The notes under the pieces: model-generated | What the model saw: the letters and a program-made list of their open reading frames with translations, nothing else | Told to the model about the DNA's origin: nothing | The model's database searches: none | Assembly (NCBI RefSeq): GCF_002113885.1 | Contig: NW_018406469.1 | Span: forward strand, 244,105 to 308,104 | Direction: 5' to 3' | Length of the DNA stretch: 64,000 nt | Origin: Mizuhopecten yessoensis | Taxonomy: Eukaryota | Made by a program: the position numbers and the translations under genes | Part shown: one piece after another, positions 4,265 through 38,300 of the stretch | Layout: each line of letters begins with the position of its first letter | Position numbering within the stretch: position 1 is the first letter of the stretch

Positions 4265-5102
4265 TATCGCTAATTTTTGTCAATTGTTAGCTAACTTTCC
4301 TTAACTACAAAACATATTTTAGTGACTCAGTTTTCAAATGTTTTAGGTGTAATTATATACTTCTGGGTTTTTATTGAGAAAAAAAGATTGGACACTTTAT
4401 TCTTGTGAAATTAACACCTACTGAAGCAATTCTTAAGACCACCAAAGGGTGTTGATCACCATCCAGTATATATATAGCCAAGAATTGATTCTGAACGAGG
4501 GAACTGTCCAGTACAAGTTCATAAAGAAATGTGTCACCACTACTATAAACAGTACCTGTAAGGTTACATGCCTCCCAGCTGTCAGCACCTGACACAGCTG
4601 TAACATATCATTGGTATGTATCAATCTGTTACACCAGCATCAGCTCCCTACATGTTGTAATCACAACTGTACCACATAAACACATACAGTAGTGTTGGAC
4701 AGAGGCCATCTGTACACAACTCATGACAATATATTTAATGAGCAGCATTTCTAATGACATTCATTCAGCATTATTTTCAGCTTAGCGTGTCACAGCTTCA
4801 CCAGTCTGATTACTTTCTAGTACAGCCTCATTATCGTCACACCTGCAATCTCGTTAGTGCAGGTCGAGGTATTCAAAATCTTCACACCTGTAAAAGTTCT
4901 TATTTCAATCACTGTACAAGCTTTGTAATACACAATTCACAATCGTACTGGGAGGGAGGTTATGGGGGTTCCCCTTTTTAAGGATCACTGCAGGCAATCC
5001 ACTGGAGAGTTCACTGTAGGATTTTGTTTTTATAGCTATTACCTCCCCTTTATTTGGTTTTGGATATAACAGTATAATGCGTAATCAAATGGGCCAGGGC
5101 AC

Positions 5103-5402
5103 TTCCGTTGACCAGGTAGCTCAGTTGGTTGGTCTCAGGCCACTGAATTTTTACACTCAGAACATTGTTGTTGATTGCTTTTCATTTATCTAATCCCTAG
5201 AAGACTTTATTTCATAAAAGACCCCCACTCCCCCACCCCCCAAAGATGTATTTTCTTTTTAGAGTTTTTTTACAGGGATCCTAAAACCACCAATTATATG
5301 GTCTCAAAGTACTGTGAGGTATGTAACGGTGTCCCCCTTGGTAATACACCCATCCTCATATGACCCTGCTGTCAAGAGGACATTTAAAACCACAAACAAA
5401 TA
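5103..5402 (+). mobile_element. Degenerate tRNA-derived SINE with a Meta-SINE-like tail
   Basis: 5' A-box-like ggtagctcagttggtt (about 5115-5130). The 3' tail catatgaccctgctgtcaagaggacatttaaaaccacaaacaaataaa resembles mollusc Meta-SINE ends as I recall them. Confidence 0.5.
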
Positions 5403-7184
5403 AAATTATTAATACACTCTGACTGCAGACAAGCACTGACTCTAAGGACCAAAAATTAATGCATAGTGTTCCTCTTTTCCAGGAAATTTGCTGTTCCAGA
5501 CATTTTTTACAGATTACCAACACAATTGCCTTGTATTATTGATGTTTCCATTTTCTCAGGAACTAAAAGTATAACTTCTAAACTGCTCCATCTGAAACAT
5601 TTACAGATTACATACACATCATTTCAGACCAAGCACCAGGGCTTTCTTGGATTTACAGGCCTAACAAAACAACTAAACCTGATAGTTTTTTTTAATCCAA
5701 AACAAACTAAATTCCACCTGAACTAAATGAAATTAAATTTTGGTATCTCCGGTCTTTCCTCATTTTGATTTTTGTCCATTAGCGACTGGGCCTTAGGGCC
5801 ATTACAGTAAAGAACAAATTATTGCCGGCTTTCTAATGGGCATTTTATAATCCATTCAAACCTGCTTTTTTGCCATCTCAAACACTTTTTTTATACTGTC
5901 TGTTTTAAAGTACATCATTGTATTTACAACAATTAATGCAGAATAATCTATTAGGAAACAGTGGTTAATATTATTCGAGAGAAACTGGCGTATCCCTCAC
6001 AGATAGTGTAGTTCTAGAGAGACTGGTATAAAACAGTGTAATTATGGTCAACTCAGAGATTTCAGACCAAAATATTTAAAAGGACATTGTATCACACTTG
6101 GGTCTCAGATTGGAATACATTGTATATAGAACAAAATAGTATGGTACACAACACTAAGGTTACAGATAGGAAAAGAAGAGAAACACAACAGATAGCTATC
6201 AATACCAGTAACCATTGCACGGCGCCAAAACTACCGTTTACTTACATAGCAATAGCTACACCAACGAAACAGGGCAAGCACGGAAATATTACTGCCTTTA
6301 TTGAATTTAGTTCATGGTTACAACAGTTTTTCATTTGTGCTGTGAAATAATCAATAGCGTTCTCTTTCCCAGGACTCCCACATATCTGCTGTGGCAGTCA
6401 CCGCTAACCATCAAACCTTAGTACAGAACACCCTTGTTGGCTAAAAGGAACAGCCTGACCCCTTGCAGAACAAGCAGGCACCTTCATACAACTAACAGAA
6501 CCTGTGAATAGTTTTGTACTAGTCCCTGCAATTTAAACAATACAAGGCAAACAGTTGTATCAAACTCTAGTTACTGCAGTCAGAATTTCCAACATCAACT
6601 TGATAAGACATTAATTTTTGTTTTGTATTCAATGACTGGAACTTTACTGGAACTGTCACGAAAATCAAAGTATATGTATATGACATTTTTCTGAAGAGCA
6701 TTTTTTGTTATGAAGTACAGAATACAATCACTTTTCATTTATACCACTATAACCGGTAATTAGAATTAGGAGAGGTTCAAGACCATGTAAACAGATCACA
6801 AATAGTGATAGCTGGTCCACAGTGATTGCTGGCACAGCACCAGTACCAGTGATAAATTATGACTCATCCCTGTATTAGGGTTAAAATACAATCAATAGTA
6901 CTTGAATTAGTGATTACACATAGATGTCTAATTAAATTCTGTGATATAATATATACATTTTGTAGATATGTATGAACAGAGGACAACACTGGGAAACTGT
7001 AGTAACTCATCTTTGACCAAAAAAAAGGAAATGAAAATTACCTGGTTATGCCATCAGGTCCAACGAGATCACAGGAAAACTTAAATGTTCCCTCAACTGT
7101 TAATGCTAAATTACCGGACATTAAAAACCATAACTTTAATTATTTTACAACAATTATGAAACAAGTTTTTACAACTGATATTAA

Positions 7185-7370
7185 TTATCACTCTTGTTGG
7201 CCCAGATATTAGCGCAGGGTCTTAATGTGGGAAGAAACCAGAGTACCGAAGAAAACCCACATGGTCGGACAGGTGACCCCATACCTGTTCATGTTCGATC
7301 AGGGAATCGAACCCTGGTTGCCTTGATGAAAGGCAAGTGCTCTATCCACTGTGCCACACGACCACCGCAC
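7185..7370 (-). mobile_element. tRNA-derived SINE with V-domain-like core
   Basis: Minus strand has an A box (gtggcacagtgg) and a B box (gggttcgattccc), followed by gtgggttttcttcggtactctggtttcttcccaca, which is close to the V-SINE core GTGGGTTTCCTCCGGGTGCTCCGGTTTCCTCCCACA. Confidence 0.75.
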
Positions 7371-10300
7371 ATAAAGGTCACAGCATTGTAAAATATTATA
7401 AAAACTAAAACAAATTTATTTCTGCTAACAAATTTATTTCTGCTGACAATGTTTAAATTGTGCAAGATGTTTATAACCAGTAACTGATAAATATTTTTTC
7501 CAAGGCTAGATAACAACATTAAAGTTGATATCAGCTAACAGATTTATAATGCCCCACTTCACAAAATCAATAGGTAAATGTCACATTGAAAGTTTCATGC
7601 GACATTTGGGGATACAATGTTATCTGAAGAGAAATTGATGAAAATTACAGACAATGATAACACAGCTAACCAATCACACCACAGGAAATGACAGTACGAC
7701 AACCAATCAGGTGGCTAGAAATGTAATAGGACGACCTCAACATTTGACCTTCGGTGAATCAGGACAATCCCAGTCACTTGTGAAACATCTATTATGCAAA
7801 GTAGATATAGAATTAAAGTTTAGGTGATGCATGCATTGTACAGCTCAGTAAATCACCTCCAGCTCATTAAGTCATTGCCTGTAGGGAAACCACGATGTTC
7901 CCAGAAGTAATGCATCTGTGTACATAGTATAGTTGTATGCAAAGTATTGTTATGTTTCTGTTACATTATCCACTTGCCAGCTAAAAGGATGCACCCGGTC
8001 TCCAACCTCTTCCCTTAAATCACAATGTGTAGACTTGTATACTGTACCATCTCTGGGACCAGCTGCCCAGTTCCTATCAGAAGGTTTGGGGGGCACATGG
8101 CCCTGATGGACTCCCTTATCTACTGTACTGTCTGCGTACTGGGCAGGAAGTTCACCTCTTATACAATTTATTGGAAACAAAAATAAAGTGTACTTATATA
8201 ATCACAGCTTCATCATCTTCAAACAAGGTTCCTGTACTTCTCTTTGACATCATATATATACATATATATGACAAACGTTTTATTGATGGACATGAAGACT
8301 GGATGCAATGCATTCTAGCTTACATGTACAAAGCTTCTAACTATCAATATATTTAGTCAATTAGAAGTATCTGACTTTGACATGATATTCAGTTCACCAT
8401 TGATCTTCTAGTTGAAGATATACTTGAAGGTGGTATATGATGCACCTCTCATCATTTTTCTATCTTTTGATGAAAACCTGTACCTTTTTTCAATGGAAAA
8501 ATGCAGTGGTATTTAAAGAAATAAGGAAAACAAATACACAACAATTTGAATAATATAACACTTTCAAGACATTTACCTTTGGTAGAACTTAAAACCTTGA
8601 AAGTGCTAATTAGTATACTTAAACTTATAAACATGTATAAATACGGAAACAGGAAGGAAATTCAGGACACAATTTCCTCAATTGCAGTAAAAATTACTGA
8701 TCATTTTTTGTTTTAATTGTACCATTAAAAACTCTGATTCACTGCCACATTAACTGTCATTGATCATTTTACTGTGGGTCACAAACATTCTCATTTAATA
8801 GACGTGCAAACAATCAAAAATTCAAATACAGAGACACAAATGGTCAGATTTCATGTCTTTCTGATCACTTTACACACCGGGGAAATTAATTCAGATGAAT
8901 TGATAGAAATTGATCAGTCGACGTCAGTCTTGGTTACAGGAGAGGTGCTTTCTACATCCATATGATGCTGATAATATCTTGCTGATAATATGTCACCATT
9001 CACAAATATAATCTGTTTTGAATGCTAATGTTTAACAGCCCTCACAATGGAGTAGATCTACCCCAGTACTATTTCAGCACCTTGTTGAATGTTTTACTGG
9101 ATAAGTATACATAATAGATTCTGTACTCTTTCACGGCTAGTAATAGATTCTGTATTATACTTTCAGTATAAAATCTTGCTGATAATATTCATCAGGGTCA
9201 GCATGAAGCAAATGACAAAGACTTGTGTTAACAGTGGTGAGTATTAGAGAGCGAACATGTGGATGGGGATGGTGTAGGGCGAAAGACAGATTGAGGCCAG
9301 GATATGGTCGGGTGAGCATGCAGCATTAATGTCTAAGTCGGCTGTTGGAAACAAAGAATGGACAGGATATATATATATGGGGACTTAGTCAAAGCTGACT
9401 TGGGTACACTATGTCTAACTATCCATATACCCACACACTGTACACTGTACCGTACGGCTTTTGGTGGCCATTTACAGGTTAGACACTCTGAAGATGCACG
9501 GAGAAGGTACAATGTACCTATACCCCTAATGGACCTTTGACTCATATTATCACAGGTCACATATATAAATTCATTTATTTCTGTCTTCTACCTTGTTTGG
9601 GTTGGGGTTTAATGTTAATCAGATACAGTGTAACACTTCAGTTGATGTTTAACCTAGGCCTCCTACATCTAAAAAAGTCCACTGTAAAACAAGACCAACC
9701 TCAACTCATTGTTCACTGTATCGGTAACATGATTCATAATTTCCATTCTCTGCTATAGCCTATATATTTGTTACTGCTGTCTGCAGAAGCAATTCTAGCT
9801 TGCCCTGTTGAATCCAATCAATCAAAAGTGCTCGTGTCAGAATACATAGAATTTATTTGATACTTATATATAAGAAATTGAATTATGGAAATGTTTATCA
9901 ATTAGTTGACAGGAATGTCAGAATTACTAAATAGTTGGATAACACCAGTTTTATTGCATTATATATATATATATATATATAGGGTTGTGGGTTAATTTAA
10001 TGTAAATATATATGTGAAACTTGATAATACAGCTTATACATGCATGTATCTATATAAAGTAAAAGATACCAGCAGTCCTTCTTTATCTATTGTGGCCTGG
10101 TCGTTCTTGTTATCAGGAAACATGTCAGCTATATCTGTACACGATGATTAGATCACATTCACTTGTCATAGGAATACAAAACATACATTTATTTCCCCTC
10201 TCACAGCTAGTACAAATTACCCAGCGCATGCCTGTCTCAACGACTCGGGACATAACACATTGTTTCCACAGGTACAGCCTAACTGAGCTTTAGTCATTAT

Positions 10301-12212
10301 GATACCATCAACATGCTTCTGCAATGGGAAGTATGTGTATGATTATCATTGATAAGACTACAATCTACAATGCCATATATATATAACCATATGAAGTTAT
10401 TTTCTCTACCTTGGTGAATATTGAGCTTTAAGTTATTTAATTAGTATCTTAGTTTATGAGTTTTAATGCAACCAAATTATAAATAAATACAGATTATATT
10501 TAACAAGGAATGAAATTAAACACAATTAACACTTCAGTTTTAAAGTAGTTTTGTTACATGTGTCACAAATGTATGAGTATATCCGTATATTATACTTGCA
10601 GTGTGTATTGTATGACAAAGTAATGACAATGAACAATTAATACATGTCTCGCTAATTGTGTGTACAAGATCAAAGGTCACAAAGGCAAGGAATCTGTCAT
10701 GTCTGTCAGGCAACCAATGCCAGGTAAGTAGACCTGTGTACTGATAGACCAATACTGCTCTTCCATACAGCATAATAAACGTTAAAACCCGTTCTAACAT
10801 TCCTTTTCTTTTGTATTCCAAAGCTTGTGGCTACCTCAAACAGTATACACAATTGTACAAAGTTATGTGAAACTGTTGACTCATCAGTGAATTAGGTTAC
10901 CAGGTATGCATGTAAGAAGTCACTGCTATTTAATGATGAAAATCTGGTATTGGTTGTACATTAAGGCATGTAAATACATGCGCCACCTTTAATACTGATT
11001 TGACTTGCTCTCTTAAACAGTAATTTGAACTATATTTGTGAAGGTATTATATCAAGTCATCAATACCAGGCTTAGAATATCACACATGCATGTAGTTTGT
11101 CAATTTTTATCTTCAGAAATACCCATTTAACATTTCTTTGTATTCACACAAAGGACAAGAATGTTTTTGCAGGAAGCCTATTGGGATTCAATGGAAGCAT
11201 ATATGTTTCACTTCGGAGAACATACTTATACATAACATAACAATATACCCAGGTAATCTACTGAGTTACATACAATCATAGCTCAGTGTTACACTCCCGG
11301 TACTTGGTAATGCACATAGACCACAATGTATGTCACCAACGTCCTCGCAATCCAAGTCTATGTTAAATATGTAGGACTTAATACAATATTCTTCACTATT
11401 GTCAGGTAAATCTCTAATAATGAAAACATTTCCTTCAGACAGGGGACTTTCACCCATTGTCCTGACTCCATGTTTAAGTTGTGTGAAAGGTGTCTCACTA
11501 CCCTTTGACATCATATGGGAAACCTAGTTTTATCAAATAACTGATCAGCGTTAAGGTCTAATAATTATCTGCTGTAAGATGTACCTAGCTATCCCCTTTA
11601 TCTATTCAAACTAACTAAACTGCTGATAGATCTAGAGAAACAGGAAGTGTTCAATTGATTCTATGTAAATTATGTTGAATTTATTTACAAACATGCAATA
11701 AACGTATAACAATTCAGTGATCAAGGATTTGTTTTGAGATTCAAGGTCATTTAAAATAGATTAAAAATCTATAAAACACTTCCACACAGACCTACTGTAT
11801 TGTATCACTCATTTGTTGAATCCACTGAGTGAAGGCAACCTTCAAGGCTGACTTTAAAAGGTTGAAGTCAGCTTCCTCATTCCTTAAAGATATCTTTTCA
11901 GCAGCCAAACTTTAACAACATATCATTACCCATTACTAATAGGCATAAAATAAATGTCTTTATTTTAAAAATTATGAGTCATTAAACCTTAAAAAAAAAT
12001 ATTATGCAGCATTATATAAGTTGATTTGGTCCTCGTTTGTAGGTTAATCGTCAAATTGTTTTTGCCGTACCAAACTCCTGTCAACTCTTACAGCGACTCA
12101 GATATTTATGTAGCGAAATGAGGTAACTATAAGTTTAATATTTCTCTGATAACAACACAAGAATGTGTACTGGATTGTCCCAAACGAATAGGACATTGTG
12201 TACTTTGCTTAC

Positions 12213-12387
12213 CACATGGATCGTAAACTGATTTTATAGCAGACGAATTAGTAGCACGAGCGGACACCTTGGGGTCACACGGGGTCACATATGTCAATAA
12301 CGTCACGGTTCGCCGAACAAAAACGGAAGCATTAAGGTGATGATATGATGCCGGTGTTGACAATGACATCCACCCCTCTTTCCGCAT
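12213..12387 (-). CDS. Candidate alternative first coding exon of srGAP (58 codons + 1 nt)
   Basis: ATG-initiated frame MRKEGWMSLSTPASYHHLNAS...VYDPC ends at TGT G|gtaagc. This is a phase-1 donor, the same phase as the canonical srGAP exon 1. No homology recognised. Confidence 0.4.
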
Positions 12388-12551
12388 CGGAAGTAACTGT
12401 AGTTACAAACGAGTAATAAATCCGGGGTCTCCCAGGAAGGAAAGAGACGTGAGCACTGTCTCAGACGACCGAACAAATGACATAACCATCGCATGTGTAG
12501 CGATACTTTATATCAGCAATGTTCACTTAATTGTTCTTTTATTTTACTTAC

Positions 12552-13005: not shown

Positions 13006-16000
13006 ATGAGTGACAACGCACAGAAAGTTGACAACGTTGCCCCATCTTTCAGACGTAAACAAGTGTTCATCCTTGATTGTGCCTACTGTGATTCTACTAT
13101 TTGTAGACGGGCGATGAGGGCAGTGCTTTTGGCAGATTCGCAAACTGAACTTTTCTCAACTGATATTCAAGAAGAAGGGTGAGTAAAAATTAAACAAGCC
13201 AGGGAGATAAAGGTTGCGAGCGTGCACTGGCCTGGCATATGCACGTGCTGAAAAAAAAACAGACCATTGAAAAGCAGACGACATTATAATGAAATTGCAA
13301 ACAATCACAGGTACTCGTTTCTAAGTAGCCAGATTTTCCTCTTGCCCTGACACCAGACTTGGACATTTTGACAGATAGATGTCTGTTGCGGGACATCTAT
13401 CTGTCAAAATGTCTAAGTCCGGTGTCCGGGCTAGAGGAAACCCTGGCTAGTTTCTAAGTGAAACACAATTTCTGCATACATATTTTTCTCTCTCATGCAA
13501 TTTGACACAATTAGAAACGAACCCCTGTGAACATTTGTGTTAATACATTCGTGTAACAAAGGTCATTATCTTTTAATGTCACCATTAGGGATCAAACCTA
13601 GGACCTAGTTTGATCCTAGGCAGAGGCACTGCAAAAATAATGACGACATAAAGACATGAAGAATTTGGAAATACTGACAAAAATACTCAGTGTAATTCTC
13701 ATCAGCACCATCTCAAAGCATTACAAGAGGCCCAGAGGGCCTGTATCGCTCACCTGGATACCTAAGCAATCATGGCAAACTGTTCTCAAAATGAGATCAA
13801 GGGAATATGCCAGACCCCAAGGCCAATCCTTGTAGCATAGCTATATTACATTTTTCATGCCCAGCAATTTTATGTATGGTTATGGGGTGGGGATCTCAAC
13901 TGTTTCCAAGCTTTGACTCAGAAACGAGGTCCCTAGAGTTGTGGCCAGACCCCAGGATCGATTCTAATATTGTGACTGCATTTGTCTCTTTTTGCCAAGC
14001 ATTTGTATATATAGTTTTGGGGTGGGGATCTCAACCGTTTCAAAGTTATGACCCAGGGGCCAAGTCTGCAAGGGTGGGGCAGACCCTGGGATCAATTCTA
14101 ATGTCATGACTGCATTCGTCTCTTTATGCCCAACAATTGTATATATAGTTTTGGGGTGGGGATATTAACCATTTCAAAGTTATGACCCAGGGGTTAAGTC
14201 TCCAAGGGTGGGGCAGTCCCCAAGGCCAACCTGGAAGCATATGTGCAATCATCTCTTTATACTCAGCAATTGTATATATACGGTTATAGGGTGGGGCTCT
14301 CAACTGTTTCCAAGCTGTGACTAAGAAACTAGGTCCCTAGGGGTTCGGTCAGACCCCAGGGTCTATTCTGATATCATGATTGCATTCGTCTCTTTATGCC
14401 CAGCATTTGTATATATAGTTTTGGGGTGGGGATCTCAACCGTTTTAAAGTTATGGCCCAGGGACTATGTCTCCAAGGGTGGGGCCAGACCCTAGGGACAT
14501 CCTGGAAGCAAATGTGCATTCTTCTCTTTATACTCAGCAATTGTATATATGGTTATATGGTGGGGATCTCAACCATTTCCAAGTAATACATTTTATTGGC
14601 CCCACCCCTTAGCCCGGGGGGTCAGCCCCACCATTTGTACAATTTTGAATCCCTGCCTCCCATGAATACTTCCGACCAAATATGATCAATATCCATGGCA
14701 TAGTTCTGCAGAAGAAGTCATTTATAGCAATATAACCAAATTGCCCCCTTTTGGCCCCGCCCCTCAGCCCCCTGGGGGGTCAGCCCAACCGTTTGTACAA
14801 TTTTGAATCTCCACCACCTAGAGATGCTTCCAGTCAAATAAGGTTGATATCCATCACTTAGTTCCAGAGAAGAAGTCACTTAAAGCAGTATAGCCAAATA
14901 CCCTTTTTGGCCCTGCCCCTCAGCCCCCTGGGGGGTCAGCCACACCATTTGTACAATTTTAAATCCCTGCCTCCCAGGAATGCTTTTGATCAAATATGAT
15001 TGATATCCAGTGCACAGTTCTACAGAAGAAGTCGTTTGTAGCAATATAGCCAAATTGCCCCCTTTTGGCCCCGCCCCTTAGCCCCCTGGGGAGTCAGCCC
15101 CACCATTTGTACAATTTTTAATCACCATCACCTAGGGATGCTTCCAGTCAAATATGGTTGATATCCACTTCTTAGTTCCAGAGAAGAAGTCGCTTAAAGC
15201 AGTATAGCCAAATACCCTTTTTGACCCTGCCCCTCAGCCCCCTGGGGGGTCAGCCACACCATTTGTACAATTTTAAATCCCTGCCTCCCAGGAATGCTTT
15301 TGATCAAATATGATTGATATCCAGTGCACAGTTCTACAGAAGAAGTCGTTTGTAGCAATATAGCCAAATTTCCCCCTTTTGGCCCCCGCCCCTAAGCCCC
15401 CTGGGGAGTCAGCCCCACCATTTGTACAGTTTTTAATCACCACCACCTAGGGATGCTTCCAGTCAAATATGGTTGATATCCACTTCTTCGTTTCAGAGAA
15501 GAAGTTGCTTAAAGCAATATGGGCGAATTGACCCCTTTTGGCCCCGCCCCTCAGCCCCCTGGGGGGTTAGCCCCACCATTTGTACAATTTTGAATCCCCA
15601 CCACCTTGGGATGCTTCCAGTCAAATTTAGTTCAATTCCAACCAGTAGTTAAGAAGAAGAAGTCGTTTAAAGAAATTGTTGACGTACGGACGGACGAACG
15701 ACGGATGCCACGGTATGGCATAAGCTCACCTTGGTCCTTCGGACCAGGCGAGCTAATAATGTCACTGGTTAAATACCAGGCACTTCCTGGCTCAAAGAAC
15801 TTCGATTTTTGTTTCGACCAAAGGGGTTCATTACAAACGTCTTATTCTGTCTTTGCATATTTCAGAGTTATCTTCTCAAGAAGTGTGAGCAGGTATTGAT
15901 TGTTACGTCATTGGTCTGTGTGAGAAAACTACGTTGTTTTCTCAAAAATTGATGAAGTTACTCTCACAAACAAATGATGTAACAATCAATACCTGCTCAC

Positions 16001-19000
16001 AAGAGCAGATAACTCAATATGCAAAGATGGAATTCAGGGTCACATCACACCGTGTACATTTAGGTGTGTTGTGACCCATAGCAGATATGTGTATAAGACA
16101 TTTGTAACAATACCCTGTGCTTCGATTTAGCTAGTAAACCAGAGTGGATGTATTGCCTTGTTACAATAATAATAGTAGATTTTTTTCAAAATCTGCTGAG
16201 TTTTATTTATATGAAACTGTGTACCAAGCATGATTTATCTAGATATATTTACCCCCCACCACAACATGGACAGGAATATGGTTAATGCCCTGTCCACTCA
16301 TCTATCGAAAGCATTGTCCACAGCATATCTTCTACGTTGATTCACCAAACTTGGTATTATCGTACATCTTGGAAAGGGGGATTGTACAAGTGTTAGACCA
16401 ATCAAACTTGGACCGTAGATGCATCTTAGGTAGTACTTTTCAACCCATGCATCAAATGATGGATGCAGCCTACCTTTCATGGTCCATTGACTTTGTCAGC
16501 ATCTCCACCAACATAAAGATTTTTGCGCTTAAGTAAAGTTTCTGGGCCCACTTGTATAAAACATCTCAACTCTTGAGATTTCCTCAAGTCTAAGATTTCC
16601 CATAGACAATACATTGCTTGAGATTTTCCTTAACTTTGAGATGTTTTAAACAAGTGGGCCCTGATATGTGCATTGATTGTCAAATGGCTTGAATGGCTTG
16701 TTATTGTTGTAGGGAGTTATCATAACCTGTACATACATAGACTACATATGAATGCTTAGCATAAACTGGTAATGAATTGTCTTTGAAGATAAATGTTGCT
16801 TATTTGAGACAAGTTAAAAAAAACACTTACAACTTCACTCTAAATTGACATTGCCACAAGACGAACATCATGTTCAGCAGGGTAAAGGGAGACAATTCTT
16901 TGAAAAAAAGTTGATTGGTACATGTATAAAAAAAAAAGCTAACTTAGGGTGATATATATAAAATATGAAATAAAAATCCATGTTTTTCAAGCAAAAATGT
17001 TTTAAAAAAAACAAATTGCAAGTTAATGAAATGACAAAAAAATGAATAAACACTCCTTTTAAAGAGTTTGGTATGTGAAGTAGCACGTTTTTCTTAAAAA
17101 GGTTAATTATAAGTTTATAAAATAATCACTGAAAAATTGATCTATTGACTTGCATTAAAACTAAACTACAGGTTGTGCAGTATTTGTATTAATGTTACCA
17201 TATCAAATAGATAAACTGCAGGGGATGCCAAACATATGACAGATATGTCTTGTGTACCTCATTATTATTCAGTGTTGGGTACAACTAGCACTTACTACGT
17301 CCCGAATATTTTTACTGTTTAGGGCATGTATACAACAGGAAATGAGTTTCCACCCATAAAGTTCAGTTCTAAAGTATGGCTAACTATAAGTATACATGTA
17401 TCTATACCAGTGTTGGCACTATCCTTTCTTTAATATAATGTCATACTATCTATAAATCAAGAGATATCTTTAAAGTGTTTCAAATTCTTTTACTCATTGG
17501 TTTAACAATTGGTGGTTTAATTTGCAATTAATATCTAGAGATAGGGACTGGCTATATAGCTACCTGCCCCTAGTTTTTATGAAGAATTTCCCGGCTGCAT
17601 TTTACTACTAGCTTATCTCCCCTTAGTTTGAGAATCGGACATGTATGCAAGTGATCAAAATTATTAGATTTTTTTTAATAATTCAATATTCTAGAGACAG
17701 GGTCGGTCTAACCTTGCCTGCACAGTAAATAAGTAACCTGGTCTGTTTGTTAATAAGTAAATAACATTATAAAGGACATTTATTCAGAAGTTATCTGTGG
17801 AGAAAGGTAGTACTGCTTGTAGTGTTTAACAAATTTGTTCAACACTGTGACAGTTTGAACCAACAAAATAAGATCTGTTTACCATGTTGTTGTTTCAGCG
17901 CTGTGGACATGACAGACGAGAAGTTTTATACAGACAACTGTGACTGTCTCATAGAACATATGGCATGTACAGCATGGTATGTATATATATCAAAACTTTG
18001 TCGGTAACAATTTTTAGAATTTTTTCTTGGCTTTTAAAAACTATGTACTTAAGAGGAGCTTATATACTGTTTTGCACTGATTCATTCATCTCTCCTGATT
18101 AATTTGCTTATTACGCCTAGTTATAGTGCAGCCACCTTTATAAATTTATGTATACTGTCGAAAGTGGCTGGATTAATTGTAAAACAGCTGGATCACTGTG
18201 ACACTTCCAAGCAGAATTAGGCAAATCTGTTCCTCCTAAACACAGACACATGGTGGCTTTATTGACAAGGCTCAACAACATATCTTTTAAGAAAAAAATA
18301 GGAAGTACATCAAGTCACCTGTATCATTTTAGTGATCGACTTGGGGCACATAAATAAAGCCTGTTATCTCCTCCATTTTCATTATTTGGTTTCTTCAACA
18401 CATTCCAACAGTTCCATATTTAGAAATGCAGCTTTCTCCCTCTACTGTTTAGTCTACTGACTTTACCTCTCTGACTTACATGGTGTTTACAATTTTATTA
18501 TTGCATCAGTTTCGTGCGATTCAGTGGTAACAATTTTGTTGAGTAACATACATTTTCTATCCGATTCGGTGGTAATGTTGTTGGGTCACATACATTTTCT
18601 ATCCGATTCAGTGGTAATGTTGTTGGGTAACTTACATTTTCTATCCGATTCATTGGTAATGTTGTTGGGTAACATACATTTTCTATCCGATTCAGTGGTA
18701 ATGTTGTTGGGTAACATACATTCTCTATCCGATTCAGTGGTAATGTTGTTGAGTAACATACATTTTCTATCCAATTCAGTGGTAATGTTGTTGAGTAACA
18801 TACATTTTCTATCCAATTCAGTGGTAATGTTGTTGGGTAACATACATTTTCTATCCTATTCAGTGGTAATGTTGTTGGGTAACATACATTTGCTATCCGA
18901 TTCAGTGGTAATGTTGTTGGGTAACATTCATTTTCTATCCGATTCAGTGGTAATGTTGTTGGGTAACATCCATTTTCTATCCGATTCAGTGGTAATGTTG

Positions 19001-20522
19001 TTGGGTAACATCCATTTTCTATCCGATTCAGTGGTAATGTTGTTGAGTAACATACATTTTCTATCCAATTCAGTGGTAATGTTGTTGAGTAACATACATT
19101 TTCTATCCAATTCAGTGGTAATGTTGTTGAGTAACATACATTTTCTATCCAATTCAGTGGTAATGTTGTTGGGTAACATACATTTTCTATCCTATTCAGT
19201 GGTAATGTTGTTGGGTAACATACATTTGCTATCCGATTCAGTGGTAATGTTGTTGGGTAACATCCATTTTCTATCCGATTCAGTGGTAATGTTGTTGGGT
19301 ACCATACATTTTCTATCCGATTCAGTGGTAATGTTGTTAGGTAACATACATTTTCTTTCCGATTCAGTGGTAATGTTGTTGGGTAACATACATTTGCTAT
19401 CCGATTCAGTGGTAATGTTGTTGGGTAACATACTTTTTCTATCCGATTCAGTGGTAATGTTGTTGGGTACCATACATTTTCTATCCGATTCAGTGGTAAT
19501 GTTGTGTAACATACATTTTCTATCCGATTCAGTGGTAATGTTGTTGGGTACCATATTCGGATGCCCTGTATAAAGTGCATCAAGTCCTGTAACAACGGCC
19601 ACATGTGGATGTTCTACAGACACGCCATCACACCCAAGGACAGACTCAACACACAAGGTCAGTATTGATAAACCAACCATATCAAACAACTTCACCAAAT
19701 CTCTCATACATAACCGTCACTTCACAATGTTTCCTACATGCTACTCTGTATACATGTCTGACCAGATCAATTGTTTGTACATGTATTTGTTAGGATACAG
19801 TCTCAAGATGACGAACTGTAAAGGTGTTTTTTTTTGTGAGGTTCTAATTATTCAAAACTTTTGCGGAAATATTTTTTTCCACAAAAAACTACAATAAATA
19901 GGAAATTACTCCATCTTCATCATAGTTCATTGTGCCATGGCCACTAGACTTGGAGGCTGTTAAATAGGTCATGCGAAATTGATCATTTTTCACAACTCTG
20001 TGAAAATTAAGCACCACTAAAAAAGGACTTTTACAGTGCAGTTGACAACTACATGTGCTTGCGATTGTTGATGAATATATACATATATATAGTCTTGAAA
20101 TTCTCTTTATTTGTATATCAATAATAATGTGTCTCCTTCCATCCCACTTATACTTGATTTTTAAGCATTCAATGAATTTTGAGTAAGTACTGTTTTGCAA
20201 ATGGAATTATGCTAAAACAACAAAGTGAAATAATATTTAAAATATGGTTGTAACTTTGACCTTATCAAACATGTTAATTAGAAAGTGTACTAAGGTACGG
20301 TGAAACACATACAAAAATAAGTAGTACTGCCATATATATATATATGTAGGAAGTTTAGAAAGAACGTGAATGTTCAAAATACTGTCAAAAAGTTTGAGTT
20401 GTGGGGTGACACTTACTCTTTGCTATTCTTATACAGGGGAGAAGGTGATGGTGTGGGGTGACATTCCCACTGAGCACCACGACCATGCTGCTGGGATGCT
20501 GCAGGATGAGTGTTGTCGCTAG
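13006..20522 (+). CDS. FAM72: FAM72 family protein, 153 aa, 4 exons: 13006-13178, 17899-17976, 19533-19657, 20437-20522
   Basis: Spliced translation is MSDNAQKVDNVAPSFRRKQVFILDCAYCDSTICRRAMRAVLLADSQTELFSTDIQEEGAVDMTDEKFYTDNCDCLIEHMACTACGNVVGYHIRMPCIKCIKSCNNGHMWMFYRHAITPKDRLNTQGEKVMVWGDIPTEHHDHAAGMLQDECCR*. It matches FAM72A motifs (RGMKAVLLAD, LFSTD, CGNIVGYH, SCNNGHFWMF, LLWGNLP, ECIR*). All introns are GT-AG and phases are 2, 2, 1. Confidence 0.96.
13326..13449. mobile_element. 124-bp fold-back MITE with 9-bp target-site duplication
   Basis: Near-complete palindrome tagccag...gacattttgacagatagatgtc / gacatctatctgtcaaaatgtc...ctggcta, flanked by gtttctaag at 13317-13325 and 13450-13458. Confidence 0.85.
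13723..15756. mobile_element. Non-autonomous Helentron/Helitron-type element (HINE-like) carrying internal tandem repeats
   Basis: One end is acaagaggcccagagggcctgtatcgctcacctg. The other end is a gacg/gacgg microsatellite followed by the hairpin agctcaccttggtccttcggaccaggcgagct. Internal arrays are about 120-bp-type units (13800-14585) and about 180-bp units (14590-15660). This architecture is typical of bivalve Helentron-associated elements. Confidence 0.8.
15831..16107. mobile_element. MITE with long imperfect inverted repeats
   Basis: Termini ttacaaacgtctta / taagacatttgtaa. Internal inverted match gtgagcaggtattgattgttac / gtaacaatcaatacctgctcac. Confidence 0.75.
16545..16660. mobile_element. 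116-bp MITE flanked by CTG direct repeats (Harbinger-like)
   Basis: TIRs ggcccacttgtataaaacatctcaa / ttgagatgttttaaacaagtgggcc, with ctg on both sides. Confidence 0.75.
18519..19555 (+). repeat. 42-bp tandem array (about 25 copies) made of the FAM72 intron 2 / exon 3 acceptor junction
   Basis: Unit cattttctatccgattcag|tggtaatgttgttgggtaacata. The last copy runs into the real exon 3. Confidence 0.95.
19815..20038. mobile_element. Degenerate actgta...tacagt MITE (Tc1/mariner-like)
   Basis: Termini actgtaaa / tttacagt with degenerate internal inverted tttt/aaaa blocks. Confidence 0.45.
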
Positions 20523-21130
20523 GTTACCACTAGAGGAGTTGTAACTAGGAAACCTCAGGATGAGTGTTGTCGCTAGAGAACTATGGGTCAAATGTTTTCT
20601 TTAAGGAACCACAGGATGGGTGTTGTCACTAGGAAACCTCAGGATGAGTTGTAACTAGAAAACCTCAGGACAAGTTGTAACTAGGAAACCTCAGGATGAG
20701 TGTTGTCGCTAGAGAACTATGGGTCAAGTGTTTTCTTTAAGGAACCACAGGATGGGTGTTGTCACTAGGTTACCACAGGAGGAGTTGTCACAAGGGAACC
20801 TCAGGACAAATTGCAACCTCAGGATGAATGTTGTCGCTAGAGAACTATGGATCAAGTGCTTTCTCTAAGGAACCACATGAGGAGTATTGTCGCTAGGAAA
20901 CCTCAGGACAAGTTGTTACCACAGGACAGAACCTCAGAATTAGTGTTGTAACATGGTAACTACAGGATGAGTGTTGTCGCTAGGTAACCACAGGACAAGT
21001 TGTCATAAGGGAACCTCAGGATGTGTTGTCACCAGGTAACCACTGGATGAGTTATCATTAGGGAACCTCAGGATGACTTTTGTAGCTAGGGAACCTCAGG
21101 ATGACTGTTGTGGCTAGGTAACCAGAAGAT
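20502..21130 (+). repeat. Irregular repeat array derived from the last FAM72 codons and stop, in the 3' UTR
   Basis: caggatgagtgttgtcgctag (QDECCR*) recurs exactly at about 20556, 20692 and 20963, with many diverged copies in between. Confidence 0.85.
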
Positions 21131-22461
21131 AAGGTTCGTCACTTGGAAACCACTGTGTTACCTCCAGACAACTCTGATGAACAGTTCGAGTCTGGACACT
21201 CGAATCAGTAAAGGTGAACTAACTGGATCCCAACTCTAAGTTACAGATGGTGATCACAATTCAGACTGCTGATTGAACGAAAGTGCTTTTAACAAAGGAT
21301 TTTTCCTGTTATATACCGATATCAGCTATTTGTTGGACTGCCTCTAGTTCTATTTAGAACAAACTACAAAATTTTGTGATAAGTTGGAGGCTGGTCTAAT
21401 AACACTTTTATTTTTCACATGTTTTTCCTGCTAGTTCTATTTATTTTGTTGTTTTTCATAATGTGTTACATTAAGTCATCAGGTCAGGCAAAAGAGGCCA
21501 GGCAAAAACTTAATCAGACTATGATGACACGAGGTACTTTTCCGGTGACATTTATTTACAATTCTACATCTTTATTTCATAGTAATGAGCACAGCGAATG
21601 AGCTCCAGAGTCATGTGAAAAATAAACTCACTAATACGTAGTTTTGTCAGATCTTGATGCAGAGGAAACACTTGCATTGTGTAGTGTTAAGGAACTTTTA
21701 ACTTATTACATTGAGAGTAAAATGTATTTTTGTTAAAATTACAGCATTCATAGCTTAAAAATATGTTTGTATACTGAACTACACTTGTACTGGCATAATA
21801 TATATAAACTGAATTTTATTATAGTAAAAGCAAGTCTGTAGGTGTGTGATGATACTTTCCAATGACTTGAGTTACCTCCCCTAATTTGTGTTGTAAATAT
21901 TAGCTCCTAAGGACATTTTTTTGGATAAATTCAGTGTTTGCTTAAAAAAATATTATGCCATAAATATGTAAAATTGCATTTTTACTGACAATAAGTCTGT
22001 ACTATGTATTATGCCAAAGCCCTTTTTACTGTATCAATGTTAACAAAAAGATCCAGATGACCCAAGAATCTGTTGTGTCTATGGGCAAAATGTATTACAA
22101 TGTTTTACGCTCACGTGATAACGTCTGAAAGTGTGATTTCATATTAAGTGTGATTGTAGAAAACATGTTTACAAGGCCTCAACTAGTTCTTTCTAAATCA
22201 TTTTTAAGGACTGATCTTTGTTGTTTGTGTATGAATGGTAGACAGAATACATGTACTACTATTTTCATTTTTTGTTTGTGTGTGCATTGGTGTTTGTTGT
22301 GTCGGGTGTTCATTAATATGAGAATTTTTAGCCTGTTTTGTACCCTTGTAAACAAAAATACTTGATGCTGTAATTGTTGTATAACATTTCTGTGCTACTG
22401 TTAGTTTACAAATACAAGCAAGAGTTGATATAAAGATTTTGGAATGAGTTCCAATATATTG

Positions 22462-23394: not shown

Positions 23395-26300
23395 TTAGGA
23401 CTTGATGACCTTGAGAAGCCACTGGACGATGTCAGTGCCTTGAGCCGTGTAGCCAAAGCTCGGGTCAAATAGACTCTCTAAAGCTGCAATGTTCTTTTTC
23501 GTCACCTCAAATGGCAGCTGAGGATAAAATAAGAAATTTTGTGATGGAGTAGGTACATGCATGCTGATTCACCGTATCATTTTTCAGAAAACGTGTTGCC
23601 ACTGATTGTATCCAACTGTTTCTGACCGATACATGCAGCGAAACCATATACAATGGTCAAATTTTCAGGTATATATACATTTTGCTTTTAGGCATAGAGG
23701 AGTTTGTGTATTCAATGAGTCACAATTTCATTTTATGCATCAAAATACATATCATATTTCTCCTAAGGTGTTTATAGCAATGTTTTTAAAATTGGACTAT
23801 TACAAAGTCATTAGAATTTTTAATCGTGTTTTCTGATTCTATACAAAAAATCACTTTACATTTTAATATAAGTAGTCTGCACAAGAAAAGATTAGGAGAA
23901 TGCGAAGCATTAAAACTATAAGTACACTGATCAAACACATTGTTATTATAATTTAAAACAATCTGTCACTTTTGTTTCAGCTATGCCAGCATCTAGTTTT
24001 GCAATCTATTTTTTGGGAAAACATGAGGCTTGCTATTGTGAAATTCATAAGCATTTTTTGTGATGGTAGCATTGAATTGCATTGATTTTTGGCATTACGG
24101 TCTGTAAGAATGACACACTGCTTTGCTGGCAAAAAGAATATAGACTGTAAATGTCATATCAACACAGTTCAATTATTATATTTACCATTTCAAGAGTATT
24201 TCAACTCATTCACCCCTGAAATTCCATAATGAACTATTCCAACCTTTGAATTGGAAGAGTTCAAATATGTCTTCGGGGATGAATGAGTTAATATATCATA
24301 GAAATCAAAATGTGCTTGTTTAAATTCTGCATATAGTTCAAATTAGTGTATCGGGTATGCTTGTTCAATGTATAAAAATAACAGCCAATTTCCATAGAGG
24401 GTCAATGTTATAAATAATGTGACCATTATGACATTATGGCATTTACAGTCTTTATATAAATGTATCGGGAAGATTTGTTCCTGTATAACCAACCAGAACT
24501 TACTGTTAATACACCTACCTCTGTTGAAACCACTGATCCAGTCTCAGATTTGTCTGTTAATACACCTACCTCTGTTGAAACCACTGATCCAGTCTCAGAT
24601 TTGTCTGTTTATACGCCTACCACTGTAGAAAGTACTGATCCAGTCTCAGATTTGTCTGTTAATTCCCCTACCTCTGTAGAAACCACTGATCCAGTCTCAG
24701 ATTTGCCTGTTTATACGCCTACCTCTTTAGAAACCACTGATCCAGTCTCAGATTTGCCTGTTAATATGCCTACCTCAGTAGAAACCACTGATCCAGTCTC
24801 AGATTTGTCTGTTAATACCCCTACCTCTTTAGAAACCACTGATCCAGTCTCAGAGTTGTCTGTTAATACGCCTACCGCTGTAGAAACCACTGATCCAGTA
24901 TAAGATTTGTCTGTTAATACACCTACCTCTGTAGAAACCCCTGATCCAGTCTCAGATTTGTCTGTTAATCCGCCTACCTCTGTAAAAACCACTGATCCAG
25001 TCGCAGATTTGTCTGCTAATACACCTACCTCTGTAGAAACCCCTGATCCAGTCTCAGATTTGTCTGATAATACACCTACCTCTGTAGAAACCCCTGATCC
25101 AGCCTCAGATTTGTCTGTTAATACGCCTACCGCTGTAGAAACCACTGATCCAGTATAAGATTTGTCTGTTAATACACCTCCCTCTGTAGAAACCACAGAT
25201 CTAGTCTCAGATTTGTCTGTTAATTCCCCTACCTCTGTAGAAACCACAGATCCAGTCTCAGATTTGTCTGGTAATACACCTACCTCTGTAGAAACCATTG
25301 ATCCAGTATCAGATTTGTCTGTTAATACACCTACCTCTGTAGAAACCACTGATCCAGTATCAGATTTGTCTGTTAATACACCTACCTCTTTAGAAACCAC
25401 AGATCCAGTCTCAGATTTGTCTGTTAATACACCTACCTCTGTAGAAACCACAGATCCAGTCTCAGATTTGTCTGTTACTACGCCTACCTCTGTAGAAACC
25501 ACTGATCCAGTCTCAGATTTGTCTGCTAATACACCTACCTCTGTAGAAACCACAGATCCAGTCTCAGATCTGTCTGTTAATACGCCTACCTCTGTAGAAA
25601 CCACTGATCCAGTCTCAGATTTGTCTGTTAATACACCTGCCTCTGTAGAAACCACAGATCCAGTCTCAGATTTGTCTTTTAATACACCTCCCTCTGTAGA
25701 AACCACTGATCCAGTCTCAGATGTGTCTGCTAATACACCTACCTCTGTAGAAACCTCTGATCCAGTCTCAGATTTGTCTGTTAATACACCTTCCTCTGTA
25801 GAAACCCCTGATCCAGTCTCAGATTTGTCTGTTAATACACCACCTCTGTAGAAACCACTGATCCAGTCTCAGATGTGTCTGCTAATACACCTACCTCTGT
25901 AGAAACCACAGATCCAGTCTCAGATTTTTCTGTCTTCTCTGCTTTCTCTTTCTCTGCCTTTTCTGATTTCTCCTTCTCGGCTTTCTCCGACAATTCCCCG
26001 ATGGAGTTGGCGTGGGGCAGACCAAGCAGGGTCTTTACATCATCCAAACACTGCTTCAGCAGGTTCTGACAAAATAATCATCACTTCTTTGTCACCACAA
26101 ACACAATTTAAATCACATAAATTATGGTTTTGTCAACCACAAACACTGATGTAAATAGGTTTTGTTATTCATCACACATAACCAAGTTTTGTCTTCACAA
26201 TTGCAGAAATTGTCATCAAAAACAGGTTGTGTGTCACAAACACAGATTCTGTCATCATAAACACAGATACACAGGTTTTTTCATCACAAAGATTCACTCA

Positions 26301-35300: not shown

Positions 35301-38300
35301 GTGCAAAATTATTTAAGCAGGTGCATGTACACTAAGTATATTCTTTGTAAAGGAAAAAAACTAACAGTTTATGTAAGTGCTGATAGAATCTAAACGTTTA
35401 ACCACAGGGGAGCCTAGACATTCCAATGATAAGCTTTACCCAGGGAATCTAGGTGAGGAATTCTGGGAGGACTAGTTATCATAGGGTGACTACTGACTGT
35501 ATCATGTCTACATGGATGTTAGTTACTAGCCTACATAGAGCTAGTCTCACCTGTTGTTTGCCTTTAGTCTTAGTCTGACGTAAAACATACAACACAAATC
35601 AATTCATTTTAACAAAATATGTGGATTTTTTTCCTTTATCATCCTTGTTTTATTTCAAAACTTGTAATTTCATATTTCTTCTTTACATTGACTTCTATAA
35701 ATCTTAATATCAAAAATGAGAAAATGAGAAAATTCACTTTATTTTGATTGTAAATCAATTCAAGAAGCGATCTGTTCCTAACTAAACATTGTGCAATGCC
35801 TCCTGGACCCCTAACTAAACATTGTGCAATGCCTCCCGGACCCCTATGTCTGTGTGAGTTATCTACCTTGCTTCTGAGTTTTCTCTTGGCAGCGGCCTGC
35901 TTGGCTGCAGCGTCTTCCCCAGAGTCGGCCACAAACTCCAGTGTACTGTTCTCCTTGATGAGGACCATACCAACGCTGTGGAGGTAGACCTGAGCAAGCT
36001 CCAGGTAGCCCTGTCGCATCAGTCTGACAACACACGTCAACATTATCATTTACAACAACAAAAGTCAACATACTCAGCCATGGCAACAAAGGTCATCATA
36101 CTCAGCCATGGCAACAAAGGTCAACATACTCACCATGGCATCACTCAACAATGACAACACAAGTTAACATAGCTGGACCATGACAACAAAGGTCAACATT
36201 ATCATTTACAACAGCATAAGTCAACATACTCAGCCATGGCAACAAAGGTCAACCTTGACAATACAGGTCAACATAGTCTTACTACACAGCCATGACCACA
36301 TATAGCTCAATATGTCTTTAAAAGGCAAATTTATTTCCAATTCTTTATATCATCATTTTTTTTTTATTCACAACACCTTCTAGTATAGCGATTTATATTC
36401 TAAATTTCTTTTAATTTCTAGCATGATATTTTGTTTTGTCCTAAATCAATGACAATATTTGCTGGTACCTACCCTAAATCATGGTCAGTTGAGAAGCTGA
36501 TTTTGATGGAGTCAATCAATGTCTCAGCTGCTTTTCTGTGGTTAAACTTGCCCATGTATACCAGCATCCTCTGGACTTTACCTAGAGAATTAAAGCAAGA
36601 GAGGTACAGATCGTATAACCATATACATGGCAGTGTTGTCTGTGATTTAGTTATTCAATGAAATCTGATTGATCACAGTGACCAACTACAAACACATTAT
36701 TGGTTCTGCCTACCTAAGTTGAAGAGTATCTCAGTGACCTACTTTAGAAAAACCAATCAATAACACTAATATAACTGGAGCAGAATAACAAAAACCTACA
36801 TTAAAGAGGGCGTAGTCATGAATGCATCACTTAACTAAAATACATTGCTGGTGACACACATACAATTGAAACATGATCACAGTGACCTACATTTGACATG
36901 TTGGTTATGCTTACCTTACTCGACTGGCACAGGGTCTTAGCAACCTACTTTCAACTTATGTGTGTGCCATTTACATAGCTAAAACAGTAATCTTCTTTAG
37001 ACAACGTGGGGGACATAGACACTCTAGAACATATTGATCTTATTTTAGGTACATTTTAGGGTGACACTTACTCGGCTGTAAGAGGATCACTGTGACCTAC
37101 TTTAGTCACCTTTAGGAAGATAACTACCAAGTGGTAATTAACAAGGTCACTGTGACCTACTTTAGACCCCTTTAGGGTAACACCTACCAAGTTGGAGTAA
37201 GATCTCAGCCTCTAGGTTGGCCTCCCTCATCACTGCCACTTGAGACAGCTCCCGAGCAGTGGTCAGTACCCCCAGGGCGTGGGTCCAGGTAACCACAGGG
37301 TCATTGTCAGTTCTGTAACATACATAGTCAGTGTTATCTATAACATACAGCAACACAATGGCCAGGTGGTGCAGTGAATAGCACTCTCACCTTTCACCCG
37401 GACAGCAGGGATTTGATTACCTGATCTGATGTGAAAATGTTTGGGGTCAATGTTATCTATAATGGTCATCTATCTCCGTTAACTACAAAACATTATAAAC
37501 AAACAGATAAAGTAAAATGTTATGTTTGCAAATGATTATTGAAATCAACTTTTATGTAACTTAATAAGGCTGTGATAAGTAAATTCCTGTCACCGTTTTC
37601 TACCTACCCTCCACAGATGTTTACTGTGATCAGAGAATGTTTTCTACCTTCCTTCCACGAATGTTTACTGTGATCAGAGAATGTTTTCTACCTACCCTCT
37701 ATGGATGTTTACTGTGATCAGAGAATGTTTTCTACCTACCCTCTATGGATGTTTACTGTGATCAGAGAACGTTTTCTACCTACCCTCTATGGATGTTTAC
37801 TGTGATCGGAAAATGTTTACTACGTACCCTCCACGGATGTTTACTGTGATCGGAGAACGTTTTCTATCTACCCTCTACGGATGTTTACTGTGATCGGAGA
37901 ATGTTTTCTACGTACCCTCCACGGATGTTTACTGTGATCGAAGAATGTTTTCTACGTACCCTCCACGAATGTACTTGGCAGCATTACGTGCCATAGCGTG
38001 GCCCACTCTCAACTTGATCTGGGCTAGGCGCAGCACATGTGGGAGGTAGATGTTCCGCATGGGACCTACAGGAGCAGAGAAGTGGGACTTCTCTCCCTTA
38101 GGGTAGTAGTGTTCAATCTTCTCCCCAAGGTCCTCCATCTGTAACATGAGTTAGAACCAATCATCTTACATTGTTAGAGAAGTCAAGAAAGGCCTGAATT
38201 AATACAATGATGGTTTAGATATATCTTGCAATGCCTCTAAATAAGAAGTTATTGTATGATGAACACTGATCCTGTCTGGAGTAAGTTCTCATACCTGTTG

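What the first reader, a model, noticed from the sequence alone, without database searches (positions are those of the whole stretch)
18519..19555. About 24 decoy acceptors upstream of FAM72 exon 3, all leading to a stop
Seen: each unit keeps the pyrimidine tract, cag| and the exon start T GGT AAT GTT GTT GGG, but the Tyr codon TAC is TAA in almost all copies. The two decoy copies with TAC (about 19300 and 19468) hit TAA in the next unit. Only the last acceptor (19532) yields FAM72. The same change also creates a weak donor-like GG|gtaaca. Inference: the spliceosome must pick the most distal of about 25 nearly identical 3' splice sites, probably by exon definition from the donor at 19658, so array length could act as a rheostat on FAM72 output.
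Basis: partly seen in the sequence, partly recalled or inferred. Interest (0 to 1): 0.7.

Follow-up and report, generated by a model that had tools for sequence, protein, structure and literature searches.

The report
Repeated splice acceptor in scallop FAM72
A 42-base tandem repeat has copied the intron 2/exon 3 boundary of a scallop FAM72 gene about 25 times, yet the assembled RNA seen is spliced only at the last, genuine copy, so it is likely a tolerated repeat of a type ("mirage") already described in lancelets and some human genes rather than an expression dial.

Summary
The array is real: 42 bp x 24.7 (18517-19555), with 24 decoy acceptor positions ahead of FAM72-like exon 3 (19533). 22 of 24 keep AG; all 24 are in frame and reach a stop. 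The protein is named Mizuhopecten yessoensis FAM72A-like. In 5 of 5 RNA runs laid (4 studies), contigs join exon 2 to the last acceptor; no decoy junction appeared, but contigs drop rare forms and NMD would hide them. The true acceptor scores no better than the decoys, while the exon 3 donor is strong, so exon definition is the likely chooser (inferred). The TAA sits where a branch point would and may be intron-derived; an in-frame stop arises in 45% of shuffles. This is a new member of the known 'mirage' splice-junction minisatellites (amphioxus; human F7, CBS); the scan met the type before in this and other genomes. One addition: in 264 sampled scallop exons, 14-16 donors but only 1-2 acceptors sit in such arrays (Fisher p 0.001-0.004). 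Acceptor arrays therefore look about tenfold rarer. The rheostat idea is untested; DNA depth only hints at length polymorphism.

The parts
13006..13178 (+). FAM72-like exon 1 (coding part, from ATG)
   Evidence: tblastn of P0001 100%; Pfam PF14976 E 2e-14; RNA loose ends join it to exon 2
17899..17976 (+). FAM72-like exon 2
   Evidence: donor at 32nd percentile
18517..19555 (+). 42-bp minisatellite, 24.7 copies; the unit spans the end of intron 2 and the first 17-23 bases of exon 3
18525..19494 (+). 24 decoy acceptor positions (first exon-like base), 22 with AG, all in frame, all reaching a stop
19506..19532 (+). true acceptor region: TAAC at -26..-23 (branch-point-like, inferred), pyrimidine run, CAG; same sequence as consensus decoys
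   Evidence: branch-point position and consensus recalled
19533..19657 (+). FAM72-like exon 3 (125 nt), the only acceptor seen used; strong donor at 19658
   Evidence: Pfam PF14976 E 2e-16; RNA contigs; donor 71st percentile
20437..20522 (+). FAM72-like exon 4 coding part to stop codon
   Evidence: GT..AG joint skipping 779 bases in run X10

Best explanation
This is an acceptor-side 'mirage' minisatellite: the intron 2/exon 3 boundary of scallop FAM72 is repeated head to tail about 25 times, the RNA seen is spliced at the last copy, and the upstream copies are likely ignored because only the last is paired with the strong exon 3 donor across a normal 125-nt exon. Shown: the repeat, the frame and stops, the junction in RNA contigs, the site scores. 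Inferred: origin by a duplication at the short match between intron (TAACATA) and exon (TACCATA), growth by unequal exchange, exon definition as the chooser, and nonsense-mediated decay of any leak, since the unit's only in-frame stop lies 148 nt or more upstream of the next junction. The array is likely a tolerated by-product of a minisatellite-rich genome.
For: Exon 2 joins the true exon 3 in 4 of 4 runs (one contig each at the donor, 244-706 nt, unbroken) and in X10 (depth 281; array contig 8.4; intron 3 at 3-4). True acceptor 5.0 bits equals consensus decoys; 19368 scores 7.0; exon 3 donor 10.0. Units 6-9 recur as 14-17, and unit 1 is degenerate, as in ordinary repeat turnover. Four scallop FAM72 proteins align with no insertion at the junction. 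Junction-spanning arrays occur at 12-13 of 196 myosin/kinesin donors and 2-3 of 68 kinase donors, and twice in neighbouring CFAP54. Amphioxus mirages are reported not to disturb splicing (PMC3087553, PMC3902484, passages).
Against: Logan contigs drop rare variants and NMD would deplete decoy products, so leakage is unmeasured. Acceptor-spanning arrays are rare here (1-2 of 264), which suggests they usually carry a cost. TAA is the only in-frame stop of the unit and 19 of 24 units carry it, so selection for it is not excluded. In human 6-16 and CBS arrays nearby pseudo-sites are used (PMC1557585, introduction passage). Array-to-flank depth differs 5-8 fold between DNA runs, so alleles of different length may exist on which a dosage effect could act.
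Confidence: 0.78

Rival explanations
1. Rheostat: a share of transcripts uses decoy acceptors, is destroyed by NMD, and that share grows with copy number, so array length tunes FAM72 output.
For: 22 of 24 decoys keep AG and score like the true site; all carry a stop far enough upstream for NMD (the 50-55 nt rule is recalled); the two nearest decoys would give normal-sized exons of 164 and 206 nt; depth hints at length variation; human tandem repeats associate with splicing (PMC10078293, listing and passages).
Against: No decoy junction in 5 of 5 RNA runs. Under exon definition only the nearest decoys compete, so adding distal copies would change little (inference). Such arrays occur in unrelated genes across the genome.
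Confidence: 0.1
2. Slightly harmful but buffered: decoys leak a little regardless of length, and the TAA spread through the array because a stop is less harmful than an in-frame 14-residue insert in the Cys-rich domain.
For: Unit length 42 (and 39, 45) keeps frame; TAA is the only stop in that frame; the region is invariant in four scallops; acceptor arrays look depleted genome-wide.
Against: 45% of shuffles give an in-frame stop; copies are not independent events; TAAC lies at a branch-point-like position and may simply be the original intron sequence.
Confidence: 0.09
3. Source of protein variants: a decoy acceptor plus the weak donor 15 nt on gives an in-frame micro-exon adding five residues.
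For: AG then GT 15 nt later in most units, frame kept.
Against: That donor is at the 5th percentile or lower; 0 of 5 RNA runs show it; no such isoform among 4 cluster members.
Confidence: 0.03

Closest known systems
Amphioxus 'mirage' minisatellites (Adh3, troponin C, PGBD5, globins BflGb6 and BflGb9); PMC3087553 and PMC3902484, passages seen; the original Adh3 paper not seen
   Same: Tandem copies spanning an intron/exon boundary; BflGb6 is also acceptor-side; many but not all copies keep the splice signal; normal splicing persists; end copies escape homogenisation; unit size within the 10-72 bp given for Adh3.
   Different: Bivalve mollusc; about 25 copies against 3-6 for BflGb6; unit in frame with one stop; length polymorphism only hinted here.
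Human F7 intron 7 37-bp VNTR, and the 6-16, CBS, lamin B2 and PDGF arrays; PMC1557585, abstract, outline and passages seen
   Same: A terminal unit spans the splice junction; identical pseudo-sites stay mostly silent; the exon-adjacent copy wins.
   Different: Those are donor-side, so the true site is transcribed first; here it is transcribed last, so a 5'-to-3' first-come scan cannot explain the choice.
Variable internal tandem repeats at exon-intron boundaries of human paralogues; PMC2812944, first part of Results read
   Same: Minisatellites of about 30 bp at exon-intron boundaries.
   Different: Those lie in segmental duplications and some change gene structure; here the gene is single copy and its product looks unchanged.

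Membership tests
Mirage / splice-junction minisatellite | Head-to-tail copies whose unit spans an exon-intron boundary | tested here: met
Mirage / splice-junction minisatellite | Many copies keep the AG or GT signal | tested here: met
   22 of 24 keep AG
Mirage / splice-junction minisatellite | Normal splicing at the authentic, exon-adjacent copy | tested here: met
   5 of 5 RNA runs, contigs only
Mirage / splice-junction minisatellite | Length instability between alleles | tested here: inconclusive
   array/flank depth about 35, 25 and 190 in X1, X6, X11 (by hand table 2); contig depth is not a copy number
Mirage / splice-junction minisatellite | Concerted turnover with diverged end copies | tested here: met
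   units 6-9 recur as 14-17; unit 1 degenerate
Regulated unproductive splicing (AS-NMD switch) | Alternative site yields a premature stop well upstream of a later junction | tested here: met
   24 of 24, 148-1111 nt
Regulated unproductive splicing (AS-NMD switch) | The unproductive form is actually made and is stabilised by NMD block | not testable with these tools
   not seen in contigs of 5 runs; no raw reads or NMD-blocked samples were offered
Regulated unproductive splicing (AS-NMD switch) | Conservation of the element across species | not testable with these tools
   no other bivalve genome is held
FAM72 protein family | PF14976 domain and full-length match | tested here: met

The most novel reading that the evidence does not exclude
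Acceptor-side mirages are purged from the scallop genome about ten times more strongly than donor-side ones because their decoys are transcribed before the true site. The FAM72 array is a rare survivor made tolerable by a weak acceptor, a strong downstream donor and a single in-frame TAA that sends leaks to NMD, and its length alleles tune FAM72 dose, giving a natural allelic series for 3' splice-site choice among identical sites.
Probability: 0.12. Interest if true: 0.65.

Novelty: new member of a known kind. Interest (0 to 1): 0.27.

Why it matters
As a single locus it matters little: the type is described and FAM72 splicing looks normal. It is a clean natural substrate for asking how a spliceosome picks the last of many identical 3' splice sites, the mirror of the F7 donor model. 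The sampled donor/acceptor imbalance (14-16 against 1-2 of 264 exons), if it holds genome-wide, would measure how much transcription order constrains splice-site duplication. Vertebrate FAM72A targets UNG2 for degradation (PMC11364545, search listing only); its role in scallop is untested, so a dosage effect cannot yet be tied to a trait.

Tried and rejected
Coding repeat: long open frames cross the array on both strands, but they are the trivial result of a 42-bp unit; the FAM72 frame is closed and no RNA contig joins the units to exon 2. Assembly artefact: rejected, as 3 of 3 DNA runs join unique flanks to units. Array-free allele: none in 3 DNA runs, a small sample. Recent gene duplicate: exon 3 has one match in G000. 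Local superiority of the true acceptor: rejected. Enrichment of arrays at exon edges in the first 60 loci was borderline (7 of 49, p 0.054), and p 0.06 with 100-nt bins in 196 exons; the p 0.003 for donor overlap uses a 70-nt window chosen after seeing the data. A full-length homologue search returned only P0001. Pfam named 0 of 8 neighbouring frames. Literature searches for a mollusc case found none: 7 papers, no mollusc title; 0; 0; 2, not on this; the library lacks most subscription journals, and no supplements were read.

Full report
Gene and array. The window is G000:C3142:244105-308104. Exon 1 matches P0001 at 100%, a 153-aa protein named FAM72A-like of Mizuhopecten yessoensis. P0001 maps to four exons: 13006-13178, 17899-17976, 19533-19657 and 20437-20522; exons 1 and 3 hit PF14976. 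TRF gives a 42-bp unit, 24.7 copies, 94% matches at 18517-19555. There are 25 acceptor-like positions; 22 of the 24 upstream ones keep AG. All 24 are in frame with the true site and reach a stop 148-1111 nt upstream of the exon 3 donor.

What the TAA is. The unit matches the exon head for 23 bases with one mismatch, TAA against TAC. That may be a substitution that spread. But the same TAAC lies at -26..-23 of the next AG, including the true one, where a branch point is expected (consensus and spacing recalled). It may therefore be original intron sequence, with the duplication arising at the near-match between intron and exon. No outgroup intron was available to decide. TAA is the only stop in the FAM72 frame of the unit, but 45% of shuffles of the 25 non-exon bases also give one, and the copies are not independent.

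What RNA shows. Nineteen runs were listed, all as contigs, and 8 were laid. In 4 of 4 RNA runs laid on exon 2 (X13-X16, three studies) a single unbroken contig leaves the donor at 17976 and continues with the true exon 3, not with repeat sequence. In X10 (a fourth study) the same junction has depth 281, the exon 3-4 joint is GT..AG, the one array-derived contig has depth 8.4 and intron 3 has 3-4. Three of these five runs are RNA by guess only, though their spliced joints show RNA. No decoy junction appeared. Four scallop FAM72 proteins align without insertion at this junction.

How the last site is chosen. With weight matrices trained on 195 acceptors and 196 donors inferred from HMM match edges in this genome, the true acceptor scores 5.0 bits (12th percentile). 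AG-bearing decoys score 3.7-7.0, and 19368 is above the true site. The exon 3 donor scores 10.0 (71st); the donor-like site 15 nt into each unit scores 2.9 (5th) with TAA and 0.7 with TAC. Local acceptor sequence thus cannot pick the site. Pairing with the strong donor and unique exon sequence across a 125-nt exon is the likely cause; this step is inferred. A micro-exon cut at the +15 donor would keep the frame, but was not seen.

DNA variation. All 3 DNA runs laid hold the array joined to both unique flanks. Summed depth over the repeat bins relative to the flank is about 35 (X1), 25 (X6) and 190 (X11), computed by hand from table 2. This hints at length alleles but is not a copy number. Units 6-9 recur as 14-17 and unit 1 is degenerate, as expected of ordinary minisatellite turnover.

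How common it is. TRF lists 62 rows in this window. The CFAP54-like gene on the minus strand has two arrays that span likely donors (37595-37972; 24503-25933) and two that abut acceptors without copying exon sequence (part of the output was cut). For a wider sample I took myosin and kinesin HMM matches (85 + 127), dropped 2 without full flanks and 14 near-duplicates, leaving 196. I added 68 of 135 kinase matches, picked by hand as small internal exons. Arrays of period 15 or more and 2.5 or more copies were judged by eye. Donor-spanning arrays: 12-13 of 196 and 2-3 of 68. Acceptor-spanning: 1-2 of 196 and 0 of 68. Pooled Fisher p is 0.0008-0.004. So junction arrays are ordinary in this genome, about 5-6% of donors, and the acceptor type looks about ten times rarer. 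Caveats: edges come from HMM matches, not annotation; three families only; manual calls; the kinase set alone is too small to test. A mutational bias is not excluded, but selection is the simpler reading, since acceptor decoys are transcribed before the true site and donor decoys after it (inference).

Comparison with what is known. Tandem copies of exon-intron boundaries were named 'mirages' in amphioxus, include an acceptor-side case (BflGb6), show length instability and were reported not to disturb splicing (PMC3087553, passages; PMC3902484, one passage). Human donor-side cases are F7, 6-16, CBS, lamin B2 and PDGF; in two of them nearby pseudo-sites are used (PMC1557585, abstract, outline, passages). 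PMC2812944 (first part of Results) reports such repeats in human paralogues. The term 'mirage' reached me through earlier scan notes, which list the type in annelids, an octopod, urchins and a comb jelly; two donor cases in this genome were noted before. No note held all the words of my asymmetry query, and four paper searches gave no mollusc case.

Verdict. Observation confirmed; interpretation partly supported. It is a new member of a known kind, likely tolerated (0.78). The rheostat stays possible (0.10) because no data here measure leakage under NMD block or expression against length. Interest 0.27, lifted a little by the donor/acceptor imbalance and by the locus's use as a natural test of 3' splice-site choice.

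Noticed in passing
window 20510-21153: A second, degenerate minisatellite (periods 26-28 and 136) starts in the last codons of FAM72 and repeats them with the stop codon into the 3' flank.
   Followed up: no
window about 19545 (exon 3 head): RNA contigs of 3 of 5 runs read a synonymous GTG for GTT in the part of exon 3 that the repeat copies; the 22 inner reference units lack it. Usable as an allele marker.
   Followed up: no
window 37595-37972 (minus): 44-bp x 8.6 array spanning a likely donor of the CFAP54-like gene.
   Followed up: partly
window 24503-25933 (minus): 51-bp x 28 array that starts in a CFAP54-like exon and repeats a likely donor; the frame breaks in the second unit, and a strong donor-like site follows the last unit. 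Whether part of it is coding was not tested with RNA.
   Followed up: partly
window 53947-54145 and 36056-36253 (minus): Arrays ending at or beside CFAP54-like acceptors; in the first, copies end CAT and only the last ends CAG.
   Followed up: partly
L186 (G000:C3644:134163-134348, minus): Kinase exon with a 44-bp x 8.5 donor array in which the first copy reads CT where later copies read GT: a dead first donor, an allele or an assembly error.
   Followed up: no
L060/L043 (G000:C2573:370673-370822, plus): Kinesin exon whose last ~65 bases plus donor are repeated 22 or more times at 98% identity, a very young donor array.
   Followed up: no
window about 4370-12500 (minus): Exon-like frames of an unidentified gene that may lie head to head with FAM72; no Pfam match for three frames tried.
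   Followed up: partly
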